Shown here in pieces: positions 6,453 to 25,647 of a DNA stretch of 64,000 nucleotides. The stretch's first letter is position 1; each line of letters starts with the position of its first letter. The notes under the pieces were generated by a model. It ran no database searches and was not told where the DNA came from. It worked only from the letters and a program-made list of their open reading frames with translations. Origin of the DNA: Gammaproteobacteria bacterium (GTDB lineage: Bacteria > Pseudomonadota > Gammaproteobacteria > Eutrophobiales > Eutrophobiaceae); assembly GCA_965243105.1 (NCBI GenBank), contig CBDEUC010000003.1, forward strand, positions 2,487,541-2,551,540. The letters are read 5' to 3'. A program made the position numbers and the translations under genes.

Positions 6453-8261
6453 ATGAAGATAATTAACAAGCAATGTGTGCTGATTGCCGCGACTGTATTT
6501 TTGGTCGCCTGTAGCCAGGATGAATCCACCAAGATATCAAAGTCATCCGGTAAGCCAGGGGACCTCAAGCCGGTTCCGATGCAGGTAGAAAGCGCAATAA
6601 CAAACCCTGTCGATATTTCCAGCGTCGAGCCAGTTGAAATTGATGAGGCCAAAATTGCGATGGAAGCTTCATTACCCCCGCTGGAGCGTGCCATGGAAGC
6701 ACCAGCGACGGTAGCGGGAAAACCGAAGAAAACCAGGGAAATCAGTATTGCCAGGATGGAATCTGCCGATTTTGCGGCACCTGCCTTTTTCCGGGAAATA
6801 CGCGCTGCGAGTGAGCCGCGAGACAGGGAAAATTACGCACATTTCGAAGACAACCAGACCAGGCGTGTCATGGAACATCCCGTTTCCACCTTCAGTATCG
6901 ACGTCGATACCGGCTCCTACGCAAATGTAAGGAGGATGCTGAATGCTGGCAGGTTGCCAGCACGCGACGCCGTCAGGACAGAGGAACTGGTGAATTACTT
7001 TTCCTACGATTACCCGGCGCACAACAACCGTGACGAACCGTTTGCCCTTTACAGGGAAATCGCACCGAGTCCGTGGAATGAAAATACCTACCTGTTACAC
7101 CTTGGTATCAGGGGTTATGACCTGGCAGAAACATCCTTGCCGGCCTCCAACCTGGTTTTCCTCGTGGACGTGTCAGGTTCCATGCAATCAGCCAACAAGC
7201 TGGAGTTACTGAAATCTTCCCTGAAACTGCTTACCAGGCAGCTCGATGCGGATGATCGGGTCTCGATCGTGGTATACGCCGGTGCTTCGGGTGTTGTCCT
7301 TGAACCGACTCCCGGGAATCAAAGGGCCAGGATCATTGCCTCGCTGGAAAGTCTTCAGGCAGGTGGTTCTACCAATGGTGCCGCGGGTATTCGCCTGGCC
7401 TATGCAATGGCGGAACAGGGATTCATCAAGGGAGGAATAAACCGGGTCCTGCTGGCAACCGATGGCGACTTCAATGTTGGCACAAGCAATATTGAGCAGC
7501 TAAAGGATCTTGTCGCTGAAAAGCGAAAAACAGGGATTTCGCTGAGTGCCCTGGGCTTTGGTACCGGGAATTATAACGATTACCTGATGGAGCAAATTGC
7601 AGATACCGGCAATGGTAACTACGCCTATATCGACACCCTGAACGAGGCACAGAAGGTACTGGTCGATGAAATGAACTCAACACTCTTTACGATTGCAAAG
7701 GACGTAAAAATCCAGCTGGAGTTTAACCCGGCACTTGTCTCGGAGTATCGACTCGTGGGCTATGAAAACCGCGTGCTGAACAGGGAGGACTTTAATAACG
7801 ACAAGGTTGATGCCGGAGAAATTGGCGCAGGACATACCGTAACTGCGCTTTACGAGATAAGCCTGGTTCCAGGAAAAGGCAAGTTGATTGACCCCCTGCG
7901 TTACCAGCAGGAAAAGCTGCCGGGTGCCACTACTGATGAACTGGCCTTCCTGAGGATCCGCTACAAGGAACCGGACTCTGAGACCAGCAAGCTTCTCGAG
8001 TGGGCGCTGGATAAAAAAGAGATCATCGCTGATATAGAAAAAACCAGCACAGACTTTCGCTTTGCATCAGCCGTGGCCTCCTTTGCCCAGGAGTTACGTG
8101 GTGGCAGGAATATCGGTGCTTTCTCCTACCCACAGGTTTACCAGCTGGCGAAAGGTGCACTGGGCGAGGATAGCTTTGGTTACCGTAGCGAGTTTATCCA
8201 GATGGTAAAACTTGCCGGGTCAATCAGTACGCCAGGCAGGCATGCACAGCTTATTCGTTAG
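6453..8261 (+). CDS. von Willebrand factor A domain lipoprotein (YfbK-like)
   Basis: Lipoprotein signal (LVACSQ). vWA MIDAS motif DVSGSM. Length and architecture match vWA+DUF3520 proteins. Confidence 0.7.
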   Translation: MKIINKQCVLIAATVFLVACSQDESTKISKSSGKPGDLKPVPMQVESAITNPVDISSVEPVEIDEAKIAMEASLPPLERAMEAPATVAGKPKKTREISIARMESADFAAPAFFREIRAASEPRDRENYAHFEDNQTRRVMEHPVSTFSIDVDTGSYANVRRMLNAGRLPARDAVRTEELVNYFSYDYPAHNNRDEPFALYREIAPSPWNENTYLLHLGIRGYDLAETSLPASNLVFLVDVSGSMQSANKLELLKSSLKLLTRQLDADDRVSIVVYAGASGVVLEPTPGNQRARIIASLESLQAGGSTNGAAGIRLAYAMAEQGFIKGGINRVLLATDGDFNVGTSNIEQLKDLVAEKRKTGISLSALGFGTGNYNDYLMEQIADTGNGNYAYIDTLNEAQKVLVDEMNSTLFTIAKDVKIQLEFNPALVSEYRLVGYENRVLNREDFNNDKVDAGEIGAGHTVTALYEISLVPGKGKLIDPLRYQQEKLPGATTDELAFLRIRYKEPDSETSKLLEWALDKKEIIADIEKTSTDFRFASAVASFAQELRGGRNIGAFSYPQVYQLAKGALGEDSFGYRSEFIQMVKLAGSISTPGRHAQLIR

Positions 8262-12095: not shown

Positions 12096-12650
12096 ATGAC
12101 CGGGATAATCGATACTATCCACGCGGATCACCGTAATTATTCGGTGCTTTTATCGATGCTTAATGCTGACATTGATAACATGAAAAAAGGTGAGAAAGCT
12201 GACTTTATCAGGCTATATGACATCATGAATTACATGATTAATTATCCGGATGTAAAGCATCATCCTGCTGAAGAGATCATTTTCGAACGACTCGAACAAA
12301 AGCAGCCGGAAATAAAAGAAGAGGTCACGCAGCTCGTGGAAGAGCATCGGCAACTGGCTGAGACAGGGCGTGCTTTACAGGAAAAACTTCAGCAGGTCAT
12401 CGGTGGGGGCATAGTCTCAAGGGAGTCGATCAGTGACGCTGCCAGGGATTACTATGAACTGCTGTCAAATCACCTGAACTTTGAAGAAGGCAAGTTGCTG
12501 CCGCTGGTGAAGCAGTCTTTCTCTGACGATGACTGGCAGAATATACAAGTCAGGCTCTCTGAAGATGAAGATCCCTTGTTTGGAAACGCTATTGATGAGC
12601 AATTTACAAACCTGTTACAGCGAATTTCAGAGTACAGGAATCTAAACTAG
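12096..12650 (+). CDS. Hemerythrin-like domain protein
   Basis: His/Glu-rich helical protein (DHRNY..., KHHPAEE...). Family assignment is tentative. Confidence 0.4.
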   Translation: MTGIIDTIHADHRNYSVLLSMLNADIDNMKKGEKADFIRLYDIMNYMINYPDVKHHPAEEIIFERLEQKQPEIKEEVTQLVEEHRQLAETGRALQEKLQQVIGGGIVSRESISDAARDYYELLSNHLNFEEGKLLPLVKQSFSDDDWQNIQVRLSEDEDPLFGNAIDEQFTNLLQRISEYRNLN

Positions 12651-12680
12651 TTTCTTGTCCAGCAGGGGCAGGGTAGAGAG

Positions 12681-12715
12681 CAAATAAAAACCCCGCCCGG
12701 GAAACCGGGCAGGGG
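12681..12715. terminator. Rho-independent terminator serving a convergent gene pair
   Basis: GC stem ccccgcccgg/ccgggcagggg with a gaaa loop. A T-rich tract follows on the minus strand (caaataaaaa on plus). Confidence 0.5.
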
Positions 12716-12743
12716 CTTGTCAATCACTGTATTTAATCGTCTA

Positions 12744-13226
12744 TCAGGGCTGGTAGGGCAGGGAAGAATGATGCAGCACAATTCTCAGCGTTCCTTCTTC
12801 GTCTTTCTTATAGCCCCAGCTTTTATCAAGCTTGGTGACGTTGCCATCCTTGTCAGTGCAGATCACCCAGCCCATCCACATTGCCACGTCTCCCTGGATG
12901 AAAGTGGCTGAAGTCTCAGAAACCACGTTGCGCCACCCCTTGATCGCAAAACCACCATCCAGCGGATAGTCATCACTGTGACCGACGAAGTAGGATAGTG
13001 CACCTTCTCTCGTTGGTCGGAAAGTTTGTTCGCCGCTTGCGAGGGTCGGCTTGAACAGGACCGGACCCATGTTATAACCATAGGCAGCATCAAGCGCGCC
13101 GTTGGCCATTTCCGTCGCAGCATCGATACCGCCGTCTTCGAAAGCTTTTGAAATAGCAACCAGGGCATCGCCCCATATCTTGCGTGCTTCTGTCAGTTCC
13201 TGTTCCGTAATCGTAGTTGTCATCAT
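12744..13226 (-). CDS. Hypothetical protein, NTF2-like/SnoaL-like fold suspected
   Basis: 160 aa with no diagnostic motif. The size and sequence feel of NTF2-like proteins. Confidence 0.3.
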   Translation of the reverse strand: MMTTTITEQELTEARKIWGDALVAISKAFEDGGIDAATEMANGALDAAYGYNMGPVLFKPTLASGEQTFRPTREGALSYFVGHSDDYPLDGGFAIKGWRNVVSETSATFIQGDVAMWMGWVICTDKDGNVTKLDKSWGYKKDEEGTLRIVLHHSSLPYQP

Positions 13227-13474
13227 TACACTCCATAATAAGCACCATGAAGGTGCACCTGGTTTTAATTGTGAGCCAGCGAGTCAGGCCGTAGCTGTTT
13301 TAATACTGTAAAAGCTGCATTCGAGCCGACGAAGATGGGCACAGTAAGAGGCAGCCAGATAGAAGTCAATAGAGGAAAGTTCGAATAAAATTTAGTAAAA
13401 ACTCGAAAAAATCGAAGTTTCCACTGAGCAAAGAAGGCTCCTGTGCCGGTTGACATCCCAGCAACCGGGGAGTG

Positions 13475-14185
13475 TCAAAAAGAATGGTGCAGGCTGACCT
13501 GGATTTGCCCCTTGTCGACGTTGCTGGTTGCCTGGTGCATATAGCCGCCCTGTATTTTGAAGTTCTTTGTAAGGCTGTATCCAAGCGCGGCATAGAGACG
13601 ATTTCGATCAAAGGTTTTTACGCGCCGACCGTTGCCAATATTTTTTTCCAGGTTGAGAAAGATCTCGTTATAAATTGCAAGATACCAGGTGCCCGGGTCA
13701 ATGTGGGTGTTATTCAGTGGAATATCCATGAACAGTGCGTAGCGGAAACGAGTGCGAAAGTCCTGGTCCTCCACCCATCGCTGCTCTGTACGAAATCGGT
13801 GCCTGAACTTGAGGCGTTCGCCAAGCCCGTGCCGAACCAGGGCTTCCTGGTAAATACGGTGTTCATTGCTGGTGGCATCGCTGTCCCCAAAAGCACCGGA
13901 AGTAATATTGGCGTAACCCTGTGTCAGCGTCACAACCTTGTTCCTCGTGGTCCAGGTCAGCCCACCCCTGAGCAACAATTGCTCCAGGTCACCACCAAGA
14001 TCCCAGTTACGATATTGCACATCTCCCTGCAGACCCCATTGCGATCCTTCAAATTGTTTGGCGAAAAAGTACATGTACCATGCGCCAGTATCGTCCTCGT
14101 CGATAGCCTGCTGCGCAAAGGAAACGCCGGGCAGCATCTTCAACACCAGGATAAGGCACAGTAATTTCTTGATTGGCTTATTCAT
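13475..14185 (-). CDS. Outer-membrane beta-barrel protein (DUF2490-like)
   Basis: Signal peptide ending SFA after the internal start MNKPIKK. Aromatic-rich alternating beta strands and a C-terminal F. Confidence 0.5.
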   Translation of the reverse strand: MNKPIKKLLCLILVLKMLPGVSFAQQAIDEDDTGAWYMYFFAKQFEGSQWGLQGDVQYRNWDLGGDLEQLLLRGGLTWTTRNKVVTLTQGYANITSGAFGDSDATSNEHRIYQEALVRHGLGERLKFRHRFRTEQRWVEDQDFRTRFRYALFMDIPLNNTHIDPGTWYLAIYNEIFLNLEKNIGNGRRVKTFDRNRLYAALGYSLTKNFKIQGGYMHQATSNVDKGQIQVSLHHSF

Positions 14186-14654
14186 ACGGGGCGGGATTAT
14201 GCACAAATACATCGGTGTTCTTCAATTTTTATGCAGCGCTTGGCGAGGGGTAAACGCGCATTCGGGTAAGTTTTCGCGTCGAACATCAGCGCCAGGCTGC
14301 GTGGATATCTTGAAAGTCTTGCTTGTCATGGCAATGGATTATAACCGTATTTGTCACCCATTTGAGGTAGTCAGTGTCAGAATTCCGTAAGCGAAAAGCA
14401 GTAATATCTCCTGCGCTGACATAAATCTGTCCTTATTTGATGCATACCGGGCCAGTCCCTGCTGGCAGCCTGCCTTCACTTGCGGGTTCGCTCGATTAAC
14501 GATTATCATTTGTCGACTTTCCTTGTCTTATACATCTCGAATGTGTTTTCGAAACTGCTTTCGAACATCTTTTGAGTAGATTTGCTGAGTCCAATCTATA
14601 AATAAAAACAACAATTCAGGGGTCTGAATCGTCGCAGGGGGAACCGCGAGGGAA

Positions 14655-15467
14655 ATGGAGGAAAAGAGTCCGGAAGATGCAGGGTTGCCTTCGCCCGAGA
14701 GCCTGGTGCAGGACATTGGGCGGGGCAGGTTACAAGCTGAGGGCTTACTCGTCTCCCGTTACTGGCGCAGCCTGTATTTCATACTCCAGCGCCGAAGCAA
14801 TGATGTTGATCTCGCTGCTGACATTGCCCAGGACACCTTCATGGTGGTCATTCGCAAGGCCCGCAATGGTGAAATAACCAATCCTTCTGCTGTCGCCGCG
14901 TTTATTCGCCAGACCGGTATTAACCTGCTTATCGCGCATTACAGGAAGGAAAAAAGAAGAAATACAGAGGCTGACAGCGATATTATTCTTGACGCCGCCG
15001 ATAGCTCACCTGGCCTGTTACAGTCAGTAGAAGCAGAAAAGGTATTCGAACTCGTCATCCAGGTGCTGGAAGAGTTAAAGGTCGAAAGAGACCGCGAGAT
15101 TCTAAAGGCCTATTTTTTACATGAAGAAGAAAAAGCCGCGATATGCGACCGCCTGGGGCTGAGCCACGAACATTTTGACCGGGTACTTCACAGGGCCAGG
15201 GGCAGGTTAAAGCAATTACTTGAATTCAAGTACGGGGAAATCAAGCTAACTGGTGCAGAAGAGAGCATCGCCAGTACCCTGTTACTGATGCTTTTTCTCA
15301 TTGAAACAGCTCATATTCCTTATCATCCGCATAATTTCTCTAATTCTGCATTTACAGTGAGAGAACCGCACTCTTCCCATCACTATGAAGGCAGAAACGA
15401 GATTTACGGAAGAATCTTCAACTCGGGAGGGGAGGACAGCTATACCTGTCCCATGAAAACCAGTTGA
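14655..15467 (+). CDS. ECF-type RNA polymerase sigma factor with a roughly 80-aa C-terminal extension
   Basis: Sigma-70 region 2 (DIAQDTFMVV) and region 4 (REILKAYFLHEE...). The extra C-terminal segment includes a hydrophobic stretch. Confidence 0.75.
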   Translation: MEEKSPEDAGLPSPESLVQDIGRGRLQAEGLLVSRYWRSLYFILQRRSNDVDLAADIAQDTFMVVIRKARNGEITNPSAVAAFIRQTGINLLIAHYRKEKRRNTEADSDIILDAADSSPGLLQSVEAEKVFELVIQVLEELKVERDREILKAYFLHEEEKAAICDRLGLSHEHFDRVLHRARGRLKQLLEFKYGEIKLTGAEESIASTLLLMLFLIETAHIPYHPHNFSNSAFTVREPHSSHHYEGRNEIYGRIFNSGGEDSYTCPMKTS

Positions 15468-15478
15468 GAGTGAATTAA

Positions 15479-16117
15479 ATGGATAAAGACTACATAGAAG
15501 AGCAGGACATTTCGGGTAAATACCTGCGTGGCGAGTTAACTGCTGAAGAAATAGAGAGCTTTGAGCTTCTGTTCATGGATGACCCGGAACTGTTGGAGCG
15601 ACTTGAACTTGACGCAGCGTTTTTTCGACATGCAGGTGGTGCGCACGAAGAAATTGATAATGTTAATAAAAACAGCACTTGGTTATCGTTTATCCAGGTT
15701 GCCATGGGCATGGCAGCGGGTGTACTGATCATGACTTTTGTACCCCAGTTAACCAGGGATGATGAGGATTTACTGGACACCCTTGGTATTGCCCAGGTCG
15801 AATACATTGATGAACTCAGGGGTGTTGATCCGGGTAAGGTTCCAACACGCTCGATTGAGTTAAACAGTAGCGCAGAGAACCTGGTGATTGTCATTGATAC
15901 CGGTGACATATTAAACATGTCCTATGACATCGTTATTAACAGGAACTCAGGAAACAGGCAGGTGGTCTCCAGCGTTATTAATGTCGCTGATACAACGGGT
16001 GAACTTGTCATTTATATTCCCGTGAGACTTATTAGTGAAGATGTTTATGTCCTGACAATGTATGAGAGTGGCACTCGTGATGTGATGAAAACATTCTTTC
16101 TTGATGTAAGCCATTAG
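15479..16117 (+). CDS. Single-pass membrane protein in the anti-sigma position (putative anti-sigma factor)
   Basis: Lies 12 nt downstream of the ECF sigma gene. Cytoplasmic N-terminus, one TM (WLSFIQVAMGMAAGVLIMTFV), periplasmic C-terminus. No zinc-binding anti-sigma motif. Confidence 0.4.
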   Translation: MDKDYIEEQDISGKYLRGELTAEEIESFELLFMDDPELLERLELDAAFFRHAGGAHEEIDNVNKNSTWLSFIQVAMGMAAGVLIMTFVPQLTRDDEDLLDTLGIAQVEYIDELRGVDPGKVPTRSIELNSSAENLVIVIDTGDILNMSYDIVINRNSGNRQVVSSVINVADTTGELVIYIPVRLISEDVYVLTMYESGTRDVMKTFFLDVSH

Positions 16118-16145: not shown

Positions 16146-17444
16146 ATGAAAAAAAAAGATATACGGGCACTTATTCCGGAGATAGCGACGAGCATGACGG
16201 GTGCCAGTTATGGCTCTTCTACATTGAGCGCCGGTATGACCTACCTGGGTCAGTTTATCTCTCACGAAATCGTTCCTAACACCATAAAGCTGACTACTTC
16301 ACGGGTAGTCACAAGAGAACTTAACCTTGACAGCGTCTATGGTGACAACAGTCTTTACACCAACCTGCTCGGGGATAAGGATAATATTTTCTTTCGCAAA
16401 AACGGGCGGTTTGTCCTGAATGAAAACAATCCGCATGACCTGAACAGGATTGAAAAGGGCCCCTTGAAGGGAACCGCCGTTATACCGGAGCAGCGTAATG
16501 ATGAAAACATGATCATTGCGCAACTGCACCTGCTGTGGCAAAAGTTACACAATGCCCTGATGGATAAAGGTATCGCAAGGAGTGCCCTGGATGCGCGAAA
16601 GATAGTCACGCTCATGATTCAGGTGGTTATTATCGAGGATTACCTGCACCAGGTGCTGGACGAGAATGTGTTTCACGCTTACTTCAGAAGCAGCAGGAAA
16701 TACCTGAAATTCGATTTCACCAGCATCCCGACTTTTTTTTCACACGCTGGTTTCCGCTTCGGGCATAGCATGGTCCGTGAAGTCTATGAAGTGAACAACG
16801 GCAGGAAGCTGCCCCTGTTAAGTCTCTTCGGCAGTGAAATGCCTATCCCGGGCGACAAGGCCATTTCATGGGACAAGTTTTTTAGAATCGACGGTAGTGA
16901 AAGTGCGCAGAAAGCGCTTGAAATAAATACTTTTATCAGCACACACATGAAAAGCATACCAGGCAGTGGTTTGCATAACATCACAACCCATATTATCGAG
17001 CGTAATCTTCTTGCCGGGTTGGAAGCCGGTTTGCCAGGTGGTAAGGAGTTTGTACAGTCAGTTATGGAACAATGCAATCGCTGCGACATCAAGAAAGACC
17101 TTGACCTCCACCTGCTGGAGGATATCTCGCAGGCTTCTTTCAGCGATGTCAAAGGCCTTTCCATTGATAACCTGCCATTGTGGCTCTATATCCTTTACGA
17201 GGCACAGGTGGAACATTCAGGTTTCAGGCTGGGCGTCCTCGGAAGCATGATCGCCGCGGAGGTATTAAGTGCCTCAATGTCCGGTGCTGCTATTTCCGTA
17301 TATAAGAATGACACTTACGAGGTAGATGAAGTTATGGAAATGCTTGACGAATTAGTTCCGGGATTCACGTCGGGATTTGATGTGAATTTCAAACAGGCCG
17401 ACATGTTCATGTCGAATTTGATCAAATTTGTGGAAAACAGCTAG
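16146..17444 (+). CDS. Short bacterial haem peroxidase of the peroxidase-cyclooxygenase (animal haem peroxidase) superfamily
   Basis: Distal-His region LGQFISHEI. REHNR-like helix RNDENMIIAQLHLLWQKLHN. Proximal FRFGH motif (AGFRFGHSMV). No signal peptide. Confidence 0.5.
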   Translation: MKKKDIRALIPEIATSMTGASYGSSTLSAGMTYLGQFISHEIVPNTIKLTTSRVVTRELNLDSVYGDNSLYTNLLGDKDNIFFRKNGRFVLNENNPHDLNRIEKGPLKGTAVIPEQRNDENMIIAQLHLLWQKLHNALMDKGIARSALDARKIVTLMIQVVIIEDYLHQVLDENVFHAYFRSSRKYLKFDFTSIPTFFSHAGFRFGHSMVREVYEVNNGRKLPLLSLFGSEMPIPGDKAISWDKFFRIDGSESAQKALEINTFISTHMKSIPGSGLHNITTHIIERNLLAGLEAGLPGGKEFVQSVMEQCNRCDIKKDLDLHLLEDISQASFSDVKGLSIDNLPLWLYILYEAQVEHSGFRLGVLGSMIAAEVLSASMSGAAISVYKNDTYEVDEVMEMLDELVPGFTSGFDVNFKQADMFMSNLIKFVENS

Positions 17445-17455
17445 GAGGAGGAAAG

Positions 17456-17950
17456 ATGGCTAAAGACTATAAGAAGGAAACGGACTGGGCGGCAGGGCCC
17501 CACAACGTATCGACAGCTATATTCGAGGTGGATAATTCCCAGGCAGAAAAACATACCGATCTACATCCGTATCTTCCCAGTGACAATGGCAAGTACAAGT
17601 TCAAATCGCTGGTGTATCCCGACGGAGCGGGTGGTCACTTTATTTTCCAGATACCCGATGATAACGGGCCATGGGATAAAAACATGGGCGTTATTATGCG
17701 TTCGCTGAAGTTAAAATTGCAGGATGATGAAAAAGGTAATCCTTACCTGCTGGACGCAAATGTCAGCTACGATCTGAAAGGGGGTAGCATTGGTAATGAT
17801 CCCGGTTGGGATGTCACCGAGTGGCGTGTCGATGTTGCGAATATTGGTAGGGAGGATGAAGAAATCCTGGACACGGTTACCTGGACCAAGGAAGGTGTAG
17901 GTACGATCCAGACCTTCGCCAAGTGGCGTCCTTACAAAGAGCTCGCATAA
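17456..17950 (+). CDS. Hypothetical 164-aa protein with no recognisable family
   Basis: Strong RBS (TAGGAGGAGG) 6 nt before the ATG. Sits between the peroxidase and CHAT genes with 11-nt and 22-nt gaps. Confidence 0.5.
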   Translation: MAKDYKKETDWAAGPHNVSTAIFEVDNSQAEKHTDLHPYLPSDNGKYKFKSLVYPDGAGGHFIFQIPDDNGPWDKNMGVIMRSLKLKLQDDEKGNPYLLDANVSYDLKGGSIGNDPGWDVTEWRVDVANIGREDEEILDTVTWTKEGVGTIQTFAKWRPYKELA

Positions 17951-17972: not shown

Positions 17973-20666
17973 ATGGGAGTGAGATTCCTGTTTTTAAGTT
18001 TGAGCCTTCTGGTTTGTCCAGGGGCTCTCGCCTGCGATGTTGAGTTGATTTTCTCAAGGTCATTGCCTTCCGCGCAGGGATCAAGGAGTGACCCTGTCGG
18101 AGCGCTGGCAATTCACGAGGAATATTTGCAGCAGGTGTCCTGCAGAAGCAGCCCCGCTACTCGAGCCGGTAGTTCTATCAAGCTTGTCGAGCTAATCCTT
18201 AACAAGGCGCAACATGGGTCGGCTAGCCGGGAAGCCTTGCATGAAAATGCGATTGCGCTGATCAGTGATGCAAAAAATGAAAGTAAGGCTAATGGTTTGT
18301 ATATCGAGTATGCACGCCTTCTTCAATTGCAGTGGGTCCTGCATCTCCAGATAAATGAATCCATAAAAGGCCTGGAGCTGCTACCCGAGGCTATTGATTA
18401 CTTAAAACGAGCTGAAGCTCCCACTGAATTGATCGCGGAGATTTATAAAGATCTTTCCTACACCTATATCCTGGCAGGAGAATTCTCCAGTGCGAAAACA
18501 TACCTGAGACGGGCTGTTGTTCTTACAGTAAATTCCAGCGATGACGATCTAAAAACAGAAATTATCCTGTCTATCGCTGATGCCTATAGAAAAACGGCCG
18601 AGCTCGAAATTGCAACAAGATACTATCGGCAGGCATATTCAATCAACGAGGCGAAAAACAATGAATTCAAGTACGACGCCCTGCTCAAGCTGGGTACCCT
18701 CGACAGGGAACAGGGCTACATTGACAGGGCTGTTAAGAAACATCTTAATTCCTACGAATTCTTTAAAAGTGGAAATTATTACAGGTCACTGGTAGCTGAA
18801 ATCGAACTTGCCCGTGATTTCCTGGCAAAGAGTGATCTTGAACAGTCAAGCAAGTACGCATTACTCGCCTTCAATGATAGTCGTGCGTTCACTGAGCAAA
18901 AACTCGATGCAGTGCTGGTATTGATGAAATCCGATCCGGGTAACTGGGAAAAATGGTCGAATGAAATCCAGGCTATCCTGGAGAGCGCTATAGCAAGATC
19001 AGGCACTGATGTTGCTCACCCGATACGCCAGCTGGAGCATGCTCGCCTGGAACTTGGGTATGTTTCAGAATCAGGAGATGAAGATGCTATCAGGCAAGTA
19101 GGTGAAAAAGGATTACGCGTATTCACAAGGTTACGCGATGACTTGAACCGCTCAGAGGAGGCTTACCACGGCTGGATGGCGTCCGCAAAACCCTTTATCA
19201 GCACCTATATCAAGACACTCTATCACACGGACAAGGAGCGCCTGTTTGATGTCCTTGAAAAAACCTACTCAATTAGTCCGAAACCGAACCAGTTACAAGG
19301 CGCTCCCCTGCTTAATCAGCAAAAGGAACCAGAAGAGATTGCCCTTTTTGAAGCCTATCTTGGCGCCGAGAAAATGGTGGTCGATGCCAGTTCGGACTGG
19401 GAAAAGGAACGTAATACTACTAACAGGGAAAAGCTGGAGCAGCTCAAAACAAGCAGGGACCTGGCAAGAGAAGCTTACCTTGAATCGAGGAAAAGCAAGC
19501 AAGAGAAAATTATTCCTCGGCCCGAAGTCGTCGAAATGACACCGAGTGAAATCGCTCCTGGAGACCTGTTTCTCAGGTATTACCTGCAAAAAGATATCAG
19601 CCTGTTGCTGGCAAGGCATGCGGGTGGTGAAGAGATTATCGAGTTGCCAGCTCGCTCAGAAATAAGAAAGCTGGTGAACGAACTGGACGAGCTTTTCCTG
19701 TCTGGTGGATCGAGCCGTGCAAAGCGACTGCAGTTACTGGGCCAGTTACGGGTGCTGTTGCCAGTACAATTATTGCAGGACAGGGATTTCCTCAGGCTGG
19801 TCATCCTGCCCGATGACGAGATCCACAGGGTACCCTTTTCCGCGATCAACCTGGAAAACCGGGATGGCTTCTATAAACCTGTTTCGAGCAAGTATCGAAT
19901 TACACGAACACATTCGGCATACCAGTACTATGCCGGGAATAGCCAGGGCAACATGAATGTTGAAAATACCGGTGCTGATATCCTGGTATTTGCCGATCCA
20001 CATTTTGACGAATATCGGCATGCTGGTAGTTCCTCAGACTCTTTCAGGAACTGGTCAAGGAACCTTGCTCGATTACCGCACACAGCGGATGAAGCCAGGC
20101 AAATCGTTACTCTTTTCCCCGATAAGAAAACCGCTGTTTTCCAGGGTAAAGAAGCTACGGACGCAATCCTGTTATCAGAGCAGGCAAGATTGGCAAATGT
20201 TCTGCATATTGCCACTCACGGTTACTACAACCAGAACACACCGGACATTGTTGGTGTCGCAACAGCGGTGGAAGACAAGGATGGTAATCCACAAAGGGGT
20301 TTCCTGAGCTTGTCAGCATTGCTGAGCATGCCCTATAACTCGGACTTAATTGTCATCAGCGGTTGTGAAACTATGCTTGGAAAAGAATATGACGGTTTTG
20401 GCGTGCAGGGCCTTGCCCAGGCCTTCATTGCACAAGGTGCTGGCTCCGTTGTCGGTACGCTATGGAAAGTTGCAGATAAACCCACCTCGATATTTATGAG
20501 GTACTTCTACGAGGCGCTGAAATCAAATGGCGGCAACAGTTCCCTGGCATTAAATACTGCCAGGAACAGGTTGGCATCAATGGGGAGATACAGGGATCCG
20601 ATTTACTGGGCTGCATTTGTCCTGACTTCGGCGAATACCTCGTTTGAGGAAAACATTCTTCATTGA
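17973..20666 (+). CDS. Secreted TPR-repeat protein with a C-terminal CHAT (caspase-like) peptidase domain
   Basis: Signal peptide (LLVCPGALA). TPR-like helical repeats. CHAT His/Cys dyad (HIATHGYY and ISGCETMLG). Confidence 0.75.
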   Translation: MGVRFLFLSLSLLVCPGALACDVELIFSRSLPSAQGSRSDPVGALAIHEEYLQQVSCRSSPATRAGSSIKLVELILNKAQHGSASREALHENAIALISDAKNESKANGLYIEYARLLQLQWVLHLQINESIKGLELLPEAIDYLKRAEAPTELIAEIYKDLSYTYILAGEFSSAKTYLRRAVVLTVNSSDDDLKTEIILSIADAYRKTAELEIATRYYRQAYSINEAKNNEFKYDALLKLGTLDREQGYIDRAVKKHLNSYEFFKSGNYYRSLVAEIELARDFLAKSDLEQSSKYALLAFNDSRAFTEQKLDAVLVLMKSDPGNWEKWSNEIQAILESAIARSGTDVAHPIRQLEHARLELGYVSESGDEDAIRQVGEKGLRVFTRLRDDLNRSEEAYHGWMASAKPFISTYIKTLYHTDKERLFDVLEKTYSISPKPNQLQGAPLLNQQKEPEEIALFEAYLGAEKMVVDASSDWEKERNTTNREKLEQLKTSRDLAREAYLESRKSKQEKIIPRPEVVEMTPSEIAPGDLFLRYYLQKDISLLLARHAGGEEIIELPARSEIRKLVNELDELFLSGGSSRAKRLQLLGQLRVLLPVQLLQDRDFLRLVILPDDEIHRVPFSAINLENRDGFYKPVSSKYRITRTHSAYQYYAGNSQGNMNVENTGADILVFADPHFDEYRHAGSSSDSFRNWSRNLARLPHTADEARQIVTLFPDKKTAVFQGKEATDAILLSEQARLANVLHIATHGYYNQNTPDIVGVATAVEDKDGNPQRGFLSLSALLSMPYNSDLIVISGCETMLGKEYDGFGVQGLAQAFIAQGAGSVVGTLWKVADKPTSIFMRYFYEALKSNGGNSSLALNTARNRLASMGRYRDPIYWAAFVLTSANTSFEENILH

Positions 20667-20732: not shown

Positions 20733-22223
20733 CTAGTCCCAGGAAAAATCACCATCCTGGTTCAAGGGCACCCCTTCCAGTTCAAATGCCCTGACCAGGG
20801 GCTCTAGTTCTGACTCGTAGTTTTTCCAACGGTACACGGACTTACTATAGATAGGTTGCCTGACCTGCCAGCTACTGGCTGTCCTGACGGACCTGCCGAA
20901 CTCCTGTGGTGAAAGACAATTCTCATCCCACTCTAGATCAAGGAAATCCAGGAGAGCTCTAATTTCCCTTTCACCATGACCAACCAGGTCCTGGTATCTC
21001 ATGGTATAAACGGGTATATCCAGGTTCTTTGTCCAGTGCTGCATTAATTTCAGGTACCCGGAGTAATAACAGGCGATATTACTCAAGGTGAAACTGAAAG
21101 ACTGTGAGTCTACAAAATTTTGAAAATAACAGGACAGGCAGGTATCAAGCGTGTTCCTGACACAATGAATAATGCGGGCCCTGGGGAAGATTAGCTTGAT
21201 CAAGGGCAAGTAGGTAAAGTTTGCAGGCATTTTATCAATAAAACGCACAGGACCAGCGCCTACCAGGTTTTCCGCTTTTTCCAGGTAAAGCTGTGCGAAA
21301 TCTTGCAACTTTTCCCTGGTTATATTTTCACGGTAGCCACTGAATGCATCTGATGTACCGGAAGTGATTACCCTACCAGACTTGTTTGTTGATAATTTAC
21401 CGCTAATAACCCTCTTATTTTTACACAATTCAAAATAAAAAAAGTTGTGAATATCTCTCAGCTCTCCCATACCAGCCACATCCCGGTGGGAAGCAAGAAT
21501 TTGCTCTGTTAATGTCGTGCCTGACCGGGGCATGCCGACTATAAAAACAGGCCTGTCATCACTTACCCCGCTTGATTGGACCGAGGCCATATATTCCACT
21601 GAAAAATTGGCAATCAGTTGATTAATATGCTGGTGAAAATCTGTTTGGCTGAATTGTAACTGGACCCGGGCATTGCCTTTACGATAATGACGAAATGCCT
21701 CCCGGTAATTTTTACAGTCATCGTAGATTTTCCCCAATGTAAAATGCAAAGTACATTGTGCGTCTTGCGATATGTCGGGTTGCCTTAAAAGCTCTTCTGC
21801 TTTACTAATTAGAGATTCTTCACCTGAATATTTCTTACAATGTGCCAGTTGATAATAACTGTTAGCAAATGACGGATTTAACTCGAGTGATTTTAAATAC
21901 AGGGTCTCCGCTTCCGAAAAAAGACCCATATCAAACTTGGCATTACCCATCCTGTATATGGGCAAATAGGATTCACCATGTAACTTGATGACCGTGGCAA
22001 GTATTGCTATTGCATCTTCAGCCTTATGTTGTTGTTGAAGTGCCAGGGCAAGCCCGAGCATGGCTGAAAAATTGTTTTCGGACTGTTCAAGTATTTGCCG
22101 GTAAATGATTTCTGCGTCTTCCGGCTTTTTCTCATTATGATACTGGCGCGCCTTCAGCAGTTGTTCGTCGAAGCGGGCTTTCCGTGGCCTTATTTGGCCT
22201 TTTATTTCATAGTTCTTGTTCAT
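20733..22223 (-). CDS. TPR-repeat protein fused to a sulfotransferase domain
   Basis: N-terminal TPRs. PAPS-binding 5'-PSB-like motif GMPRSGTT and a downstream sulfotransferase region. Confidence 0.7.
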   Translation of the reverse strand: MNKNYEIKGQIRPRKARFDEQLLKARQYHNEKKPEDAEIIYRQILEQSENNFSAMLGLALALQQQHKAEDAIAILATVIKLHGESYLPIYRMGNAKFDMGLFSEAETLYLKSLELNPSFANSYYQLAHCKKYSGEESLISKAEELLRQPDISQDAQCTLHFTLGKIYDDCKNYREAFRHYRKGNARVQLQFSQTDFHQHINQLIANFSVEYMASVQSSGVSDDRPVFIVGMPRSGTTLTEQILASHRDVAGMGELRDIHNFFYFELCKNKRVISGKLSTNKSGRVITSGTSDAFSGYRENITREKLQDFAQLYLEKAENLVGAGPVRFIDKMPANFTYLPLIKLIFPRARIIHCVRNTLDTCLSCYFQNFVDSQSFSFTLSNIACYYSGYLKLMQHWTKNLDIPVYTMRYQDLVGHGEREIRALLDFLDLEWDENCLSPQEFGRSVRTASSWQVRQPIYSKSVYRWKNYESELEPLVRAFELEGVPLNQDGDFSWD

Positions 22224-22277: not shown

Positions 22278-24425
22278 CTAACTGAAAATATCTCCTGCCC
22301 GGATTTTCTCATCAACGATGGCGGGGCAGCGAAAACGCTCACCATATAAGCTGGTAAGTTCGTTACAGCGCTGACTAAAATTCTCCAGGCCATAGGTATT
22401 GACGAACTGTATAAAGCCCCCGGTCCAGACCGGTGCACCAATGCCCATGATGGAACCGATGTTTCCGTCGACGACTGACCTCAAAACACCGGTTTCAAGA
22501 CATTTGAGAGTTTCAATCACCTGCCTGAATAGCAGCCTGTCCTTCACATCCTGGTCATCAATGTCGAACACGGGGTTGTAATACTTGTCCAGCAGTGAAG
22601 GCCACACGGTCCTGTTACCATCCTCGGTATAGTCATAAAAACCGCCGTTGTGATGTTTACCTCCACGGTTATTTTGATTCACCAGGAAATCCAGTACTTC
22701 CCGTTGAATATCCAGCTCACCCCACTTGTCTTTTTCTCCCATTGCATCCCAGGTCTCAATGATCTTCAATGACAGCTGCTGGCTGACTTCATCATAGATA
22801 GTTATAGGGCCTACAGGCATACCGAGAGCTTTTCCAAGATTATCTATTTTTACCGGGTGAAGTCCTTCGTGCAGCAGGCGGACCCCTTCATTGAGATAGG
22901 TGCCAAAAGTACGCGAAGTGAAAAAGCCCAGTGAATCGTTTACCACGATGGGAGTCTTTCTAATCTGTTGCGTGTAATCAAAGGCACGTGCCAGTGTTTC
23001 ATCGCTGGTTAATTCGCCACAGATGATTTCTACCAGGGGCATCTTGTCTACGGGCGAGAAAAAATGGATGCCGATAAAATTTTCCGGGTGTGAACTTGCC
23101 TGAGCCAACCCGGTAATAGGCAGGGTGGAGGTATTTGAACCCCAGACCCCGTTAGCTACAAGGTATTTTTCCAAAGACTTGATAATTTCATTTTTTACAT
23201 CCTTATTTTCAAAGACGGCTTCGATGATGAGATCGCAGCCCTCAAGCTCATTATCATTCGCGGTTGCCTTGATGAGTCCAAGTACCTGCTCCTTGCCTGG
23301 TTCATCCATACGACCCTGCTGCACTCTCTTGTTCAACAATTTTTCTGAATAGGCTTTACCCCTGTCAGCAGATTCCTGGCTGACGTCTTTCAAGATCACT
23401 TCGATACCGGCCATTGCGGAGACATAGGCGATCCCCTGGCCCATCATTCCTGCACCCAGGACACCGACTTTATTCACCCGGCTTTTCTCCACGTCGACAG
23501 GACGACTGGCGCCGCTATTGACCTTGTTGAGCCCGAAAAAGAAGGTGGTGATCATATTCCTGGCCACATCGGTCTGCACCAGGCGGGTAAAAGCCCGTGA
23601 CTCGACACGCAGTGCCGTGTCAAAGTCCACGGTAGCAGCCTGTACCGCACAATCAAGCACCTCGGCAGGCGCCGGCAGCAGGCCACGGGTTTTCTGCGCC
23701 GTCATGGCAGGCGCGCCCATCAGGACCTGTGCCAGTCGCGGTGAATTTGCACCGCCACCGGGAATCTTGTGACCTTTACGGTCCCAGGGCTGGAAGGCGG
23801 CTTCTTCATTACCTTTTTGTGCAAGAAGCCAGTCTCTTGCCCGAGGTAGCAAATCATCCAGGCTTTGCACCGTCTCGTGGATGAGCCCGGCCTGCAGGGC
23901 CTGTTGAGCATCAAGCTTCCTGCCTTCAAGAAGATAGGGCGCTGATTGTTCCAGTCCAAGCAGGTTGACGGTCCGGACAATTCCACCGGCACCCGGGAGC
24001 AACCCAAGAGTCACTTCCGGCAAACCCAATTGAACCGATTTGTCATCAAGCGCAATGCGGTAGTTGCAGGCAAGGCAAATCTCAAACCCACCCCCGAGAG
24101 CTGCCCCGTTGATAGCCGCAACTACAGGCACCGGCAGCTTTTCAAGACGGCGAAACTGTAATTTTACTTTTTCAACCATGTCAAAGAATTCACTTTCAGA
24201 TCCGGGCTTCACTGCAAGAAGCTCATTCAGATCACCACCTGCAAAGAAAACTTTCTTTGCTGATGCGATAATGACGCCACCCAGTTCTTCTTCTTTCTCC
24301 AGCCTGTCCACGGTGCTGACCATGGCTTCGCGATACTCTGCGTTCATGCAGTTGACCGGGCCTGACTGGTCCATGGTAATCGTGACTATGCCGTCACTGT
24401 CTTTCTCGTATTTAAAAACACTCAT
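22278..24425 (-). CDS. Fatty-acid oxidation complex alpha subunit (enoyl-CoA hydratase/3-hydroxyacyl-CoA dehydrogenase, FadB/FadJ-like)
   Basis: Crotonase fold followed by an NAD-binding 3HCDH domain (GVLGAGMMGQGIA). Start placed at the internal MSVFKYEK so it does not overlap the thiolase. Confidence 0.85.
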   Translation of the reverse strand: MSVFKYEKDSDGIVTITMDQSGPVNCMNAEYREAMVSTVDRLEKEEELGGVIIASAKKVFFAGGDLNELLAVKPGSESEFFDMVEKVKLQFRRLEKLPVPVVAAINGAALGGGFEICLACNYRIALDDKSVQLGLPEVTLGLLPGAGGIVRTVNLLGLEQSAPYLLEGRKLDAQQALQAGLIHETVQSLDDLLPRARDWLLAQKGNEEAAFQPWDRKGHKIPGGGANSPRLAQVLMGAPAMTAQKTRGLLPAPAEVLDCAVQAATVDFDTALRVESRAFTRLVQTDVARNMITTFFFGLNKVNSGASRPVDVEKSRVNKVGVLGAGMMGQGIAYVSAMAGIEVILKDVSQESADRGKAYSEKLLNKRVQQGRMDEPGKEQVLGLIKATANDNELEGCDLIIEAVFENKDVKNEIIKSLEKYLVANGVWGSNTSTLPITGLAQASSHPENFIGIHFFSPVDKMPLVEIICGELTSDETLARAFDYTQQIRKTPIVVNDSLGFFTSRTFGTYLNEGVRLLHEGLHPVKIDNLGKALGMPVGPITIYDEVSQQLSLKIIETWDAMGEKDKWGELDIQREVLDFLVNQNNRGGKHHNGGFYDYTEDGNRTVWPSLLDKYYNPVFDIDDQDVKDRLLFRQVIETLKCLETGVLRSVVDGNIGSIMGIGAPVWTGGFIQFVNTYGLENFSQRCNELTSLYGERFRCPAIVDEKIRAGDIFS

Positions 24426-24438
24426 GCTCAAGATCCTG

Positions 24439-25647
24439 TTATACGCGTTCAATAATGGTCGATATACCCATGCCACCGCCGATGCAAAGAGACAGCATGG
24501 CACGTTTTAACGAACGTCTTTCCAGCTCATCCATCATGGTGCTGACAAGCATTGCACCCGTGGCTCCAAGGGGGTGGCCCATGGCTATGGCACCTCCGTT
24601 AACATTTGTGATTTCATGATCGATATCAAGATCGCGCATGTAACGCATTGCCACCGATGCGAAAGCTTCATTGATTTCCCAAAGGTCAATGTCCTTCTTT
24701 TCCAGGCCGGCCTTTTTAAGGCACTTTTCCGCTGCAGGTCCCGGACCAGTTAACATGATAATAGGATCAGTAGATAACACTGCTGTTGCCACGACACGTC
24801 CCCGGGGTGTCAGTCCGAGATCCTTTCCTGCCTTTTCGCTACCAACCAGGACTGCACTGGATCCGTCGACAATGCCGGAAGAGTTGCCCGGCGTGTGAAC
24901 GTGGTTCACTTTCTGGAGGGTGTTGTATTTCCTGATGATGATGTCATCAAAGCCATACTGGCCCATCGCCTCAAAAGACGGTTTAAGTGCGGCCAGGCCT
25001 GCCATGGACGTGTCGGGCTTGATGAAATCATCTTGGTCAAGGATGGTAATACCGTTTTTGTCTTTGACCGGTACGACGGAACGGTCGAAATAACCATTTT
25101 CCCTGGCATGGCTCGCGCGTTTCTGGGATTCGACGGCATAGGCATCCACGTCTTCACGGGACCATCCCTCGAGCGTGGCAATAGTGTCAGCACCGATACC
25201 CTGTGGCACAAAGCCCGTTTTCATTGCGAAGGCGGCATCCTGCACCATGGCCCCGCCATTACTGAACATGGGTACCCGTGACATTGATTCAATACCCCCG
25301 GCAACTACGAGATCTTCCCAGCCGGAAGCCACCTTCTGTGCGGCAATGTTCACAGCTTCCAGGCCTGAGGCACAAAACCGGTCCAGCTGCATCCCTGCCA
25401 CGGACTCGTCCCAATCGGCATTTTGCACGATCATTTTTGCGACATCGCTACCCTGTTCACCCACCGGCGTCACGCAGCCCATAACCACGTCATCTACGTA
25501 AGAAGTATCAAGGTCGTGCCGGCTTTGAAGTTCCCTCAACAGGCCTGCGCCCAGGTCGATAGGCTTTACCTCGTGCAGGCTGCCGTCCTTTTTACCCTTG
25601 CTGCGAGGGGTTCTCAGGGCATCATAAATATAGGCATTCTCGGGCAT
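24439..25647 (-). CDS. 3-ketoacyl-CoA thiolase (FadA/FadI-like)
   Basis: Thiolase N- and C-terminal signatures with active-site Cys contexts. Lies upstream of fadB/J on the same strand, which is the fadIJ-like order. Confidence 0.85.

What the first reader, a model, noticed from the sequence alone, without database searches (positions are those of the whole stretch)
16146..17444. Compact (432 aa) bacterial member of the animal haem peroxidase / cyclooxygenase superfamily
It has the distal-His block GQFISHEI, an REHNR-like helix (RNDENMIIAQLHLLWQKLHN) and the proximal FRFGH motif. It is much shorter than typical bacterial An_peroxidase proteins (500-1400 aa) and has no signal peptide. The distal motif is SHE rather than the canonical DHD, which is closer to the cyclooxygenase and linoleate-diol-synthase branch. 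That raises the possibility of a fatty-acid dioxygenase (oxylipin-forming) activity, not a classical peroxidase.
Basis: partly seen in the sequence, partly recalled or inferred. Interest (0 to 1): 0.7.

Follow-up and report, generated by a model that had tools for sequence, protein, structure and literature searches.

The report
Sigma-factor-linked compact bacterial haem peroxidase
The 432-residue gene is a real, minimal bacterial relative of myeloperoxidase-type haem peroxidases, not a cyclooxygenase-like fatty-acid dioxygenase; it belongs to a common, already annotated family, but it sits in a conserved, apparently undescribed five-gene unit with a partner protein, a periplasmic caspase-like protease and its own sigma/anti-sigma pair.

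Summary

The active-site set is peroxidase-type: Gln36/His40, Arg117, Glu120, His207 and Asn287. The residue three before the proximal His is an invariant Arg, as in MPO. It is not the catalytic Tyr that all COX/DOX enzymes retain, so the oxylipin idea is not supported.

Compactness is not unusual. At least 546 species carry relatives (median length of the best 120 hits is 449 aa), which RefSeq annotates as "peroxidase family protein". "Short peroxicins" are already a named group with unknown role.

What is new is the context. In 14 loci this clade lies in a fixed module: peroxidase, a fast-evolving ~160-aa partner (naturally fused to the peroxidase in three relatives), a signal-peptide TPR-CHAT protease, an ECF sigma factor and a single-pass anti-sigma-like protein. 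This resembles a split version of Myxococcus DdvS/DdvA. The clade has also lost the Asp that forms one of the two haem ester bonds, as in DdPoxA. The physiological role remains unknown.

The parts
14655..15467 (+). ECF-type sigma factor (270 aa). About 190 aa form the sigma2-sigma4 core. A ~80-aa C-terminal extension follows, holding a hydrophobic stretch (res 205-219, nt 15267-15311) and a conserved VRExxxxxH motif (nt 15357-15383).
   Evidence: Pfam Sigma70_r2 (E 2e-7) and Sigma70_r4 (below its cut-off); TIGR02937 sigma70-ECF 66 bits (cut-off 42.9). Orthologs lie next to the peroxidase in 12 of the 13 related loci; L087, cut just upstream of the peroxidase, shows none. The extension is aligned.
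15479..16117 (+). Anti-sigma-like single-pass membrane protein (212 aa). It has a conserved N-terminal ~60 aa (YIE..DI..RYL.G.L..EE.E.FE), a TM segment at res 68-88 (nt 15680-15742), and a ~120-aa C-terminal domain that is probably periplasmic.
   Evidence: No Pfam/NCBIfam hit. It is always adjacent to the ECF gene. Alignment A5 of 11 orthologs has invariant Y15, L20, F28, E29 and R114. A single strong hydrophobic window at ~res 70-95 is seen in all orthologs.
16146..17444 (+). The finding: a 432-aa minimal haem peroxidase domain, predicted cytoplasmic. Distal Q36/H40 (nt 16248-16271 block), catalytic R117 and ester-forming E120 (nt 16494-16505), proximal H207 (nt 16752-16766 block), and N287 as partner of the proximal His (nt 17004-17006).
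17456..17950 (+). Partner protein (164 aa), fast-evolving, predicted all-beta, with invariant P41, W73, W143 and W157. It is probably a subunit or accessory domain of the peroxidase.
   Evidence: It always lies between the peroxidase and CHAT. A reciprocal search from this protein returns the same trio. Only 31 representatives exist in 1.8 billion proteins. It is naturally fused to the C-terminus of the peroxidase in P0045, P0038 and P0047, with contexts confirmed in L089 and L090.
17973..20666 (+). TPR-CHAT protease (897 aa). It has a signal-peptide-like N-terminus (MGVRFLFLSLSLLVCPGALA|CD), TPR repeats at ~res 130-350 and a CHAT domain at res 597-884. The catalytic residues are His749 (nt 20217-20219) and Cys798 (nt 20364-20366).
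   Evidence: Pfam CHAT E 2e-50. The dyad is invariant in 11 orthologs. A hydrophobic N-terminus is present in all orthologs once the starts of L083, L085 and L086 are corrected.

Best explanation
The gene encodes a cytoplasmic, minimal-domain haem peroxidase of the myeloperoxidase/lactoperoxidase-type branch. Its architecture fits the 'short peroxicin' group. By inference from conserved residues, H2O2 reacts at a haem ligated by His207 (supported by Asn287). Distal His40, Arg117 and Gln36 assist formation of compound I, which then oxidises a small donor. The Asp that makes one of the two haem ester bonds is replaced (Ser39) while Glu120 is kept. The haem is therefore expected to carry at most one ester link, as in Dictyostelium DdPoxA, which oxidises iodide and thiocyanate but not chloride. 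The enzyme works together with the 164-aa protein encoded 11 nt downstream; adjacency and natural fusions are shown here, the complex itself is inferred. Both are co-transcribed with an ECF sigma factor, a single-pass anti-sigma-like protein and an exported TPR-CHAT protease. By analogy with DdvS/DdvA, an envelope signal would activate the periplasmic CHAT protease. That would lead to removal of the anti-sigma, release of the sigma factor and induction of the operon, with the two-part peroxidase as its output. The physiological substrate and trigger are unknown.

For: Partner. The order peroxidase-small-CHAT is fixed with 11-22 nt gaps or overlaps. There are three independent natural fusions.

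Module. It is seen in 14 loci, from 45% down to ~31% peroxidase identity, in Gammaproteobacteria and a Rhodospirillales MAG. It is absent next to 63+ more distant relatives. Twelve of the 14 linked peroxidases form one NJ clade.

Topology and catalysis. The peroxidase and partner lack hydrophobic N-termini, the anti-sigma has one TM, CHAT has a signal peptide and its His/Cys dyad is invariant.

Precedent. In DdvA, a periplasmic TPR-CHAT is fused to a transmembrane anti-sigma that controls ECF DdvS (PMC11506125).
Against: No biochemical data exist for any member. Haem binding, covalent linkage and substrate are all inferred. E120 is not invariant in the clade (Asp in 3 and Ile in 1 of 10 linked loci). 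No shared ECF-type promoter could be found upstream of the operons, so autoregulation is not shown. The anti-sigma-like protein has no detectable homology to known anti-sigma domains. The CHAT domain is only remotely similar to that of the putative DdvA chain 8rot_B (E 0.23). The peroxidase is cytoplasmic and CHAT is periplasmic, so their tight genetic coupling is not explained by direct contact. The module encodes no H2O2 source.
Confidence: 0.6

Rival explanations
1. One reading: a COX/linoleate-diol-synthase-like fatty-acid dioxygenase that forms oxylipins through a tyrosyl radical.
Against: The catalytic Tyr three residues before the proximal His, retained in COX and all DOXs, is an invariant Arg here, as in MPO. 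The catalytic Arg, the ester Glu and the His-Asn pair typical of non-COX families are present. No COX/DOX chain reaches E<=0.01 with the family profile. The invariant Tyr214 aligns with a Tyr also present in MPO and EPO. The fad genes are not conserved in related loci.
Confidence: 0.04
2. The module is an inducible defence or suicide system. An envelope insult (phage, predator, competitor) is sensed by the periplasmic TPR-CHAT, the sigma factor is released, and the two-part peroxidase makes diffusible (pseudo)hypohalous oxidants that kill the invader or the infected cell.
For: The only characterised ECF/anti-sigma/TPR-CHAT switch controls phage defence. MPO-type peroxidases are oxidant-producing immune effectors. 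The partner protein evolves very fast. Most hosts are marine, where iodide and bromide are available.
Against: None of the five proteins hits PADLOC. The loci lie among housekeeping genes such as hslVU and putA, not in defence islands. There are no copies on phages, and plasmids carry only distant unlinked relatives. The module has no H2O2-generating enzyme.
Confidence: 0.15
3. Peroxidase, partner and CHAT act together on one substrate. One version: the Trp-rich small protein or an envelope protein is oxidatively cross-linked or processed, as in peroxidasin or RiPP-like maturation, with CHAT as the processing protease and the ECF pair only regulating. Another version: the peroxidase reaches the periplasm by a non-classical route.
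For: The order peroxidase-small-CHAT is fixed with overlapping stop and start codons, whereas the sigma/anti-sigma pair moves around. The partner has invariant Trp residues.
Against: The peroxidase and partner have no export signal in any ortholog, whereas CHAT always has one. Enzyme-substrate fusions are unusual, yet three fusions exist.
Confidence: 0.12
4. A plain H2O2-scavenging stress enzyme whose neighbours are irrelevant, or an inactive haem-binding pseudo-peroxidase or sensor.
For: [quoted passage not shown] A hemerythrin gene lies upstream in the window.
Against: The neighbourhood is conserved across 14 loci down to ~31% identity, and the partner is sometimes fused. All catalytic residues are conserved, which argues against a pseudo-enzyme. 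The hemerythrin is not conserved elsewhere.
Confidence: 0.08

Closest known systems
Short bacterial peroxicins (Family 5 of the peroxidase-cyclooxygenase superfamily, Zamocky et al. 2015, PMC4420034)
   Same: Single-domain, short bacterial PF03098 proteins from cyanobacteria, proteobacteria and actinobacteria. They are known only as putative sequences and their role is 'completely unknown'. The relatives found here have that same taxonomic spread and size.
   Different: Placement with the named Family 5 sequences (Gloeobacter, Rivularia, Gloeocapsa) was not tested. This clade has lost the first ester Asp. It carries a dedicated partner protein and an ECF/anti-sigma/TPR-CHAT context that the papers I could search do not mention.
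DdPoxA, Dictyostelium discoideum peroxidase A (PDB 6erc; Family 6)
   Different: DdPoxA is eukaryotic, secreted, glycosylated and 511 residues long, with only 17% identity. The window protein is cytoplasmic, 432 aa, and has a separate partner subunit.
Myeloperoxidase / lactoperoxidase / cyanobacterial peroxidase 8s6c (Families 1 and 6)
   Same: The fold and all catalytic residues apart from the ester Asp are shared. The FRFGH, RxxE and N..G.P motifs align collinearly.
   Different: Those enzymes have two (MPO three) haem-protein links and a full Ca2+ site. They are secreted and ~100-150 residues longer. Identity is 15-19%.
DdvS/DdvA of Myxococcus xanthus (ECF sigma plus transmembrane anti-sigma with a periplasmic TPR-CHAT; PMC11506125)
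   Same: An ECF sigma factor, a single-pass anti-sigma and a periplasmic TPR-CHAT with an intact His-Cys dyad are encoded together. The proposed logic is that CHAT acts as a site-1-like protease.
   Different: Here the anti-sigma and TPR-CHAT are separate polypeptides. The CHAT domains are barely similar (E 0.23 to 8rot_B, taken to be DdvA from its 991-residue length). The sigma is a generic ECF by sequence. The co-transcribed output is a peroxidase plus partner, not CBASS/CRISPR.
COX, alpha-dioxygenase and linoleate dioxygenases (Family 4)
   Different: The catalytic Tyr is absent (Arg204 instead). The peroxidase-type Arg/Glu/Asn residues are present. There is no significant profile match.

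Membership tests
Peroxidase-cyclooxygenase superfamily (Pfam PF03098) | Match to the family profile above the curated cut-off | tested here: met
   50.2 bits against a cut-off of 25, E 2e-13, residues 55-372.
Peroxidase-cyclooxygenase superfamily (Pfam PF03098) | Alpha-helical haem peroxidase fold | tested here: met
Peroxidase-cyclooxygenase superfamily (Pfam PF03098) | Distal and proximal histidines at the family positions | tested here: met
   H40 lies in GQFISHE, aligned to MPO GQLLDHD. H207 lies in FRFGH, aligned to MPO FRYGH. Both are invariant in 40 homologs.
Peroxidase-type families (all except 4 and 7) | G-Q-x-x-D-H-D distal signature (first Asp forms a haem ester, second Asp binds Ca2+) | tested here: inconclusive
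   Gly, Gln and His are present. The first Asp is Ser39 and the second is Glu41. More distant relatives have DHD in 68 of 72 loci, while 10 of 11 CHAT-linked loci lack the first Asp. DdPoxA also lacks it and is an active peroxidase.
Peroxidase-type families (all except 4 and 7) | R-x-x-E (catalytic Arg and ester-forming Glu) | tested here: met
   R117-N-D-E120 aligns with MPO R239-S-S-E242. R117 is invariant and E120 is Glu in most members.
Peroxidase-type families (all except 4 and 7) | Proximal His hydrogen-bonded to Asn | tested here: inconclusive
   N287 (>=90% conserved) aligns with the Asn of MPO 'LNMQRSRDHGLP'. The hydrogen-bond geometry could not be measured.
Peroxidase-type families (all except 4 and 7) | Bound, covalently modified haem and H2O2-dependent activity | not testable with these tools
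   This needs protein expression, spectroscopy and assays.
Short bacterial peroxicins (Family 5) | Short, single-domain bacterial protein | tested here: met
   432 aa with only PF03098. The 120 best homologs have a median length of 449 aa.
Short bacterial peroxicins (Family 5) | Phylogenetic grouping with the reference Family 5 sequences | not tested
No solved structure belongs to this family; the profile is about equidistant from Families 1 and 6.
COX / alpha-DOX / linoleate dioxygenases (Family 4) | Catalytic Tyr three residues before the proximal His (COX Tyr385/His388) | tested here: not met
   That position is Arg204, invariant in 40/40 homologs. The motif is [FY]-R-[FLY]-G-H in all 82 loci. 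The defining feature is taken from PMC13049297.
COX / alpha-DOX / linoleate dioxygenases (Family 4) | Closer sequence and structure similarity to Family 4 than to the peroxidases | tested here: not met
COX / alpha-DOX / linoleate dioxygenases (Family 4) | Second conserved Tyr (COX Tyr348) and a hydrophobic fatty-acid channel | not tested
   Model coordinates could not be inspected.
DdvS/DdvA-type ECF switch | ECF sigma factor encoded with a single-pass transmembrane anti-sigma | tested here: inconclusive
   The ECF is confirmed. The partner has one TM and a conserved N-terminal domain but no detectable homology to anti-sigma domains.
DdvS/DdvA-type ECF switch | Periplasmic TPR-CHAT fused to the anti-sigma | tested here: not met
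   TPR-CHAT is a separate protein with its own signal peptide in all loci.
DdvS/DdvA-type ECF switch | Intact CHAT His-Cys dyad | tested here: met
   H749 and C798 are invariant in 11 orthologs.
DdvS/DdvA-type ECF switch | Controls a CBASS/CRISPR defence island | tested here: not met
   No PADLOC hit for any module protein. The neighbours are housekeeping or variable genes.

The most novel reading that the evidence does not exclude
The five-gene unit is a previously undescribed envelope-signal-to-oxidant system. A split DdvA-like switch (exported TPR-CHAT protease, single-pass anti-sigma, ECF sigma) induces a cytoplasmic two-subunit, single-ester MPO-like peroxidase that makes reactive (pseudo)hypohalous species. 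It would be a bacterial counterpart of the peroxidase arm of innate immunity, used against phage, predators or competitors, or as a suicide effector.
Probability: 0.15. Interest if true: 0.8.

Novelty: new variant of a known kind. Interest (0 to 1): 0.45.

Why it matters
The enzyme itself is ordinary in kind. It belongs to a large, already annotated family of short bacterial haem peroxidases. The physiological role of that family is stated in the literature to be completely unknown. The conserved link found here gives the first concrete, testable handle on when such an enzyme is made and with what it works. That link comprises a dedicated partner protein (sometimes fused) and an ECF sigma / anti-sigma / periplasmic TPR-CHAT set. 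It also provides a second, naturally split architecture for the recently described DdvA type of CHAT-containing anti-sigma switch. That could help to test whether CHAT acts as the site-1 protease. Finally, it corrects the oxylipin hypothesis, which would otherwise misdirect experiments.

Tried and rejected
1. Shared ECF-type promoter. Bipartite-motif enumeration over 14 upstream regions, and within-locus comparison of the peroxidase and sigma upstream regions, found nothing above shuffled controls. The sigma-70 and terminator scan of the operon was at chance level.

2. Structure of the 164-aa partner. AF2 with 6 sequences gave pLDDT 42, which is unusable. There was no PDB profile hit and no Pfam or NCBIfam hit.

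3. Defence-system models. PADLOC gave no hit for any of the five proteins.

4. ECF classification literature. The 2021 reclassification paper's main text does not mention CHAT or peroxidase, and its supplements are not held. A review links CHAT plus subtilase contexts to group ECF54 only. Searches combining CHAT, ECF and peroxidase, or conflict systems, found no paper.

5. Organism identity. The proteins occur on an unnamed 2.76-Mb NCBI/ENA contig. No contig record was retrievable for the window protein and the window has no tRNA. This is unresolved. The closest module relatives are a Kangiella MAG (45%), Aliiglaciecola and Steroidobacteraceae.

6. Full-length CHAT profile against PDB. It was swamped by TPR repeats. 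Repeated with the CHAT domain alone it gave only weak hits.

7. The afdb50 fold library was unavailable.

8. Fatty-acid context. The FadB/FadA-like genes downstream are not conserved in related loci, so they were rejected as evidence.

9. MopA-like Mn(II) oxidase. I considered and rejected this on reasoning only. From general knowledge, those are very long, secreted, Ca-repeat 'long peroxicins' (paper found, not read).
Full report
OBSERVATION. The ORF at 16146-17444 (+) exists as described: ATG start, 432 aa. The three quoted motifs are at residues 35-42 (GQFISHEI), 117-136 (RNDEN...LHN) and 203-207 (FRFGH). Pfam PF03098 is matched at 50.2 bits (gathering score 25, E 2e-13). That match covers only residues 55-372, so the distal block lies outside the Pfam alignment. 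A direct search of PDB sequences finds myeloperoxidase (E 3.7e-5). Its alignment puts R117 on MPO Arg239, E120 on Glu242 and FRFGH on FRYGH, which holds the proximal His336.

FAMILY. A protein search returned 537 relatives, all with PF03098. Most are 415-530 aa and several are named 'peroxidase family protein' by NCBI. The best 120 have a median length of 449 aa. A scan of one genome per species found at least 546 loci across Proteobacteria, Cyanobacteria, Actinobacteria, Acidobacteria, Bacteroidota and others. Compactness is therefore the rule in this family. The literature already names 'short bacterial peroxicins' (Family 5). They are known only as putative sequences, and their physiological role is called 'completely unknown' (PMC4420034). 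Rhizobial megaplasmids carry distant copies annotated 'heme peroxidase family protein'. Phage genomes carry none.

ACTIVE SITE AND FOLD. In an alignment of 40 homologs, Q36, H40, R117, N118, H135, R204, G206, H207, S208 and Y214 are invariant. N287 is at least 90% conserved. An AlphaFold2 model built on that alignment is confident (pLDDT 92.2, pTM 0.93).

| Search | Peroxidase branch | Dioxygenase branch |
|---|---|---|
| Foldseek vs PDB | 8s6c 5e-13; LPO, MPO, DdPoxA 1e-12 to 1e-11; ~16% identity | COX and rice alpha-DOX ~2e-7; 11-13% identity |

- GQFisHD with GQLLDHD (MPO) and GQFLDHD (8s6c)
- RNDEN with TRSSEM
- FRFGHS with FRYGHT
- erNLeagekagLp with LNMQRSRDHGLP (the Asn partner of the proximal His)
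- LPLW..L.EA with IDLW..LAED

The review states that G-Q-x-x-D-H-D, R-x-x-E and a proximal His-Asn pair typify every family except COX (4) and DUOX (7). The protein therefore has a complete peroxidase-type set except for the first Asp (Ser39). The second Asp is conservatively Glu41.

THE DIOXYGENASE IDEA. COX and all fungal, plant and cyanobacterial fatty-acid dioxygenases retain the proximal His388, the catalytic Tyr385 three residues before it, and Tyr348 (PMC13049297). Here the residue three before His207 is Arg204. It is invariant in the 40-sequence alignment, and Arg holds that position in all 82 fetched loci, exactly as in MPO (FRYGH). The invariant Tyr214 aligns with a Tyr that is also present in MPO and EPO, so it is not a substitute radical site specific to this family. 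'SHE' is not a COX-like feature. It is a clade-specific loss: 68 of 72 more distant relatives have D-H-D, whereas 10 of 11 close relatives have Ala or Ser at that position. The precedent is DdPoxA, where the Asp is replaced by Ile. Its haem has a single Glu ester bond, and the enzyme oxidises iodide and thiocyanate fast, bromide poorly and chloride not at all (PMC5787809). By inference, this protein is a single-ester peroxidase with a similarly low-potential haem.

GENOMIC CONTEXT. The peroxidase is the third of five same-strand genes separated by 11, 28, 11 and 22 nt:

| Gene | Coordinates | Main evidence |
|---|---|---|
| ECF sigma factor | 14655-15467 | TIGR02937, 66 bits |
| 212-aa protein, one TM segment | 15479-16117 | Hydrophobicity and alignment |
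| Peroxidase | 16146-17444 | See above |
| 164-aa protein, no known domain | 17456-17950 | No Pfam or NCBIfam hit |
| 897-aa TPR-CHAT protein | 17973-20666 | CHAT E 2e-50 |

The same set recurs next to every close homolog whose flanks could be read. These are L001, L003, L004, L023/L088, L081/L082, L083, L084, L085, L086 and L090. L002, L087 and L089 carry it partially because they are cut by contig ends. That makes 14 loci with the window, down to ~31% peroxidase identity. The order peroxidase-small-CHAT is fixed, often with overlapping stop and start codons. The sigma/anti-sigma pair lies upstream, downstream or divergent. More distant relatives lack the set and show no other strongly conserved neighbour. 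In a rough neighbour-joining tree, 12 of the 14 linked peroxidases form one clade. The L023/L088 pair retains the Asp and branches next to that clade, near the root (no bootstrap). The window's other neighbours are not conserved elsewhere: hemerythrin, DUF2490, TPR-sulfotransferase, FadB/FadA-like genes and a Mo-oxidoreductase.

THE PARTNER PROTEIN. The small proteins at the same position are homologous but very divergent (14-27% identity between loci). They share invariant P41, W73, W143 and W157. An exhaustive HMMER search of 1.8 billion representatives finds only 31 relatives of 137-191 aa. Contexts retrieved starting from two of them are again peroxidase-small-CHAT. Three peroxidase homologs of 575-629 aa carry this domain fused to their C-terminus: P0045 (E 1.5e-18), P0038 (2.5e-10) and P0047 (8.8e-10). 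In L090 the fused gene is followed directly by CHAT, sigma and anti-sigma, with no separate small gene. In L089 it follows sigma and anti-sigma. This is Rosetta-stone evidence that the two proteins act as one unit. The structure of the partner could not be predicted (pLDDT 42).

TOPOLOGY AND THE REGULATORY PART. Neither the peroxidase nor the partner has a hydrophobic N-terminus in any of 11 orthologs. The 212-aa protein always has one strong TM segment at about residues 70-95, after a conserved N-terminal domain. All CHAT proteins have a signal-peptide-like N-terminus with positive charges before it and acidic residues after it, once three mis-called starts are corrected. The CHAT His and Cys (H749 and C798 in the window protein) are invariant. 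The characterised precedent is M. xanthus DdvA. It is a transmembrane anti-sigma whose large periplasmic part is a TPR-CHAT with an intact dyad. That part is proposed to self-cleave as a site-1-like step before RseP releases the ECF sigma DdvS (PMC11506125). Here the same parts are present but split into two polypeptides. Sequence similarity of the CHAT domains is marginal: craspase TPR-CHAT 7e-4, and 0.23 to 8rot_B, the 991-residue chain I take to be DdvA. The sigma factor is a generic ECF by sequence. This is therefore a resemblance of architecture and probable logic, not membership. I could not find a shared promoter motif, and none of the proteins matches PADLOC defence models.

MOST LIKELY MECHANISM.
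- Shown: a peroxidase-type catalytic set in a confident superfamily fold; a dedicated partner that is sometimes fused; and co-inheritance with an ECF sigma, a single-pass membrane protein and an exported, catalytically intact TPR-CHAT.
- Inferred: the enzyme uses H2O2 to form compound I on a haem with at most one ester bond, then oxidises a small donor, with iodide or thiocyanate-like substrates most plausible by analogy with DdPoxA. The partner modulates or targets this activity. An envelope signal acts through the periplasmic CHAT protease and the anti-sigma to release the sigma factor and induce the operon.
- Unknown: the trigger, the physiological substrate, the H2O2 source, and why a cytoplasmic enzyme is so tightly coupled genetically to a periplasmic protease.

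VERDICT. The superfamily assignment and the catalytic His assignments are right. The claims of unusual compactness and of COX/LDS-like dioxygenase chemistry are not supported. The enzyme is a member of a known, widespread and already annotated kind. The clade-specific features appear undescribed in the papers I could search. These features are loss of the ester Asp, a dedicated partner subunit, and a conserved ECF / anti-sigma / TPR-CHAT module. They make this a new variant of moderate interest.

Noticed in passing
window 15237-15467 (ECF residues ~195-270); also L002, L003, L004, L083, L085: The ECF sigma factor carries a ~60-80-aa C-terminal extension with a hydrophobic stretch (IASTLLLMLFLIETA) followed by a conserved VRExxxxxH motif. 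Among the aligned sigma orthologs, six of the seven whose sigma/anti-sigma pair lies upstream of the peroxidase have it (L089 does not). The three aligned orthologs with the pair downstream (L023, L081, L090) lack it. It could be a membrane tether or a regulatory extension.
   Followed up: partly
P0038, P0045, P0047; L089 7001-8728; L090 7001-8890: These are natural fusions of the peroxidase with the small partner domain (575-629 aa). In L090 the fusion replaces the two separate genes within an otherwise intact module.
   Followed up: yes
L023/L088 (upstream), L089 1809-4241, L090 15060-15890: A subtilase (Peptidase_S8) gene recurs near the module in several loci. L089 also has a second TPR-CHAT gene plus a 160-aa ORF just upstream. 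A review notes CHAT plus subtilase contexts for ECF group ECF54 (PMC8999054). Whether these sigma factors are related to that group was not tested.
   Followed up: no
window 12096-14212: A hemerythrin-domain protein (12096-12650, +), a 160-aa protein with no Pfam hit (12744-13226, -) and a DUF2490 protein (13475-14212, -) lie just upstream of the module. None is found in the related loci.
   Followed up: partly
window 20733-22223 (-): A TPR plus sulfotransferase protein (496 aa) converges on the end of the CHAT gene, with only 66 nt between the two stop codons.
   Followed up: no
window 22278-25647 (-): A FadB-like (enoyl-CoA hydratase / 3-hydroxyacyl-CoA dehydrogenase) and FadA-like (thiolase) pair. 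This is ordinary beta-oxidation, it is not conserved next to the peroxidase elsewhere, and it is not evidence for a fatty-acid substrate.
   Followed up: partly
L028, L058, L066: Three relatives with no CHAT gene detected within the fetched flanks also lack the distal ester Asp (AHE, SHD, AHD). The loss may therefore have happened more than once, or a divergent CHAT was missed.
   Followed up: no
window 28070-29353 (+) and 6453-8261 (+): A SpoIIE/PP2C-type phosphatase domain protein and a YfbK-like VWA protein. They are unrelated to the finding.
   Followed up: no
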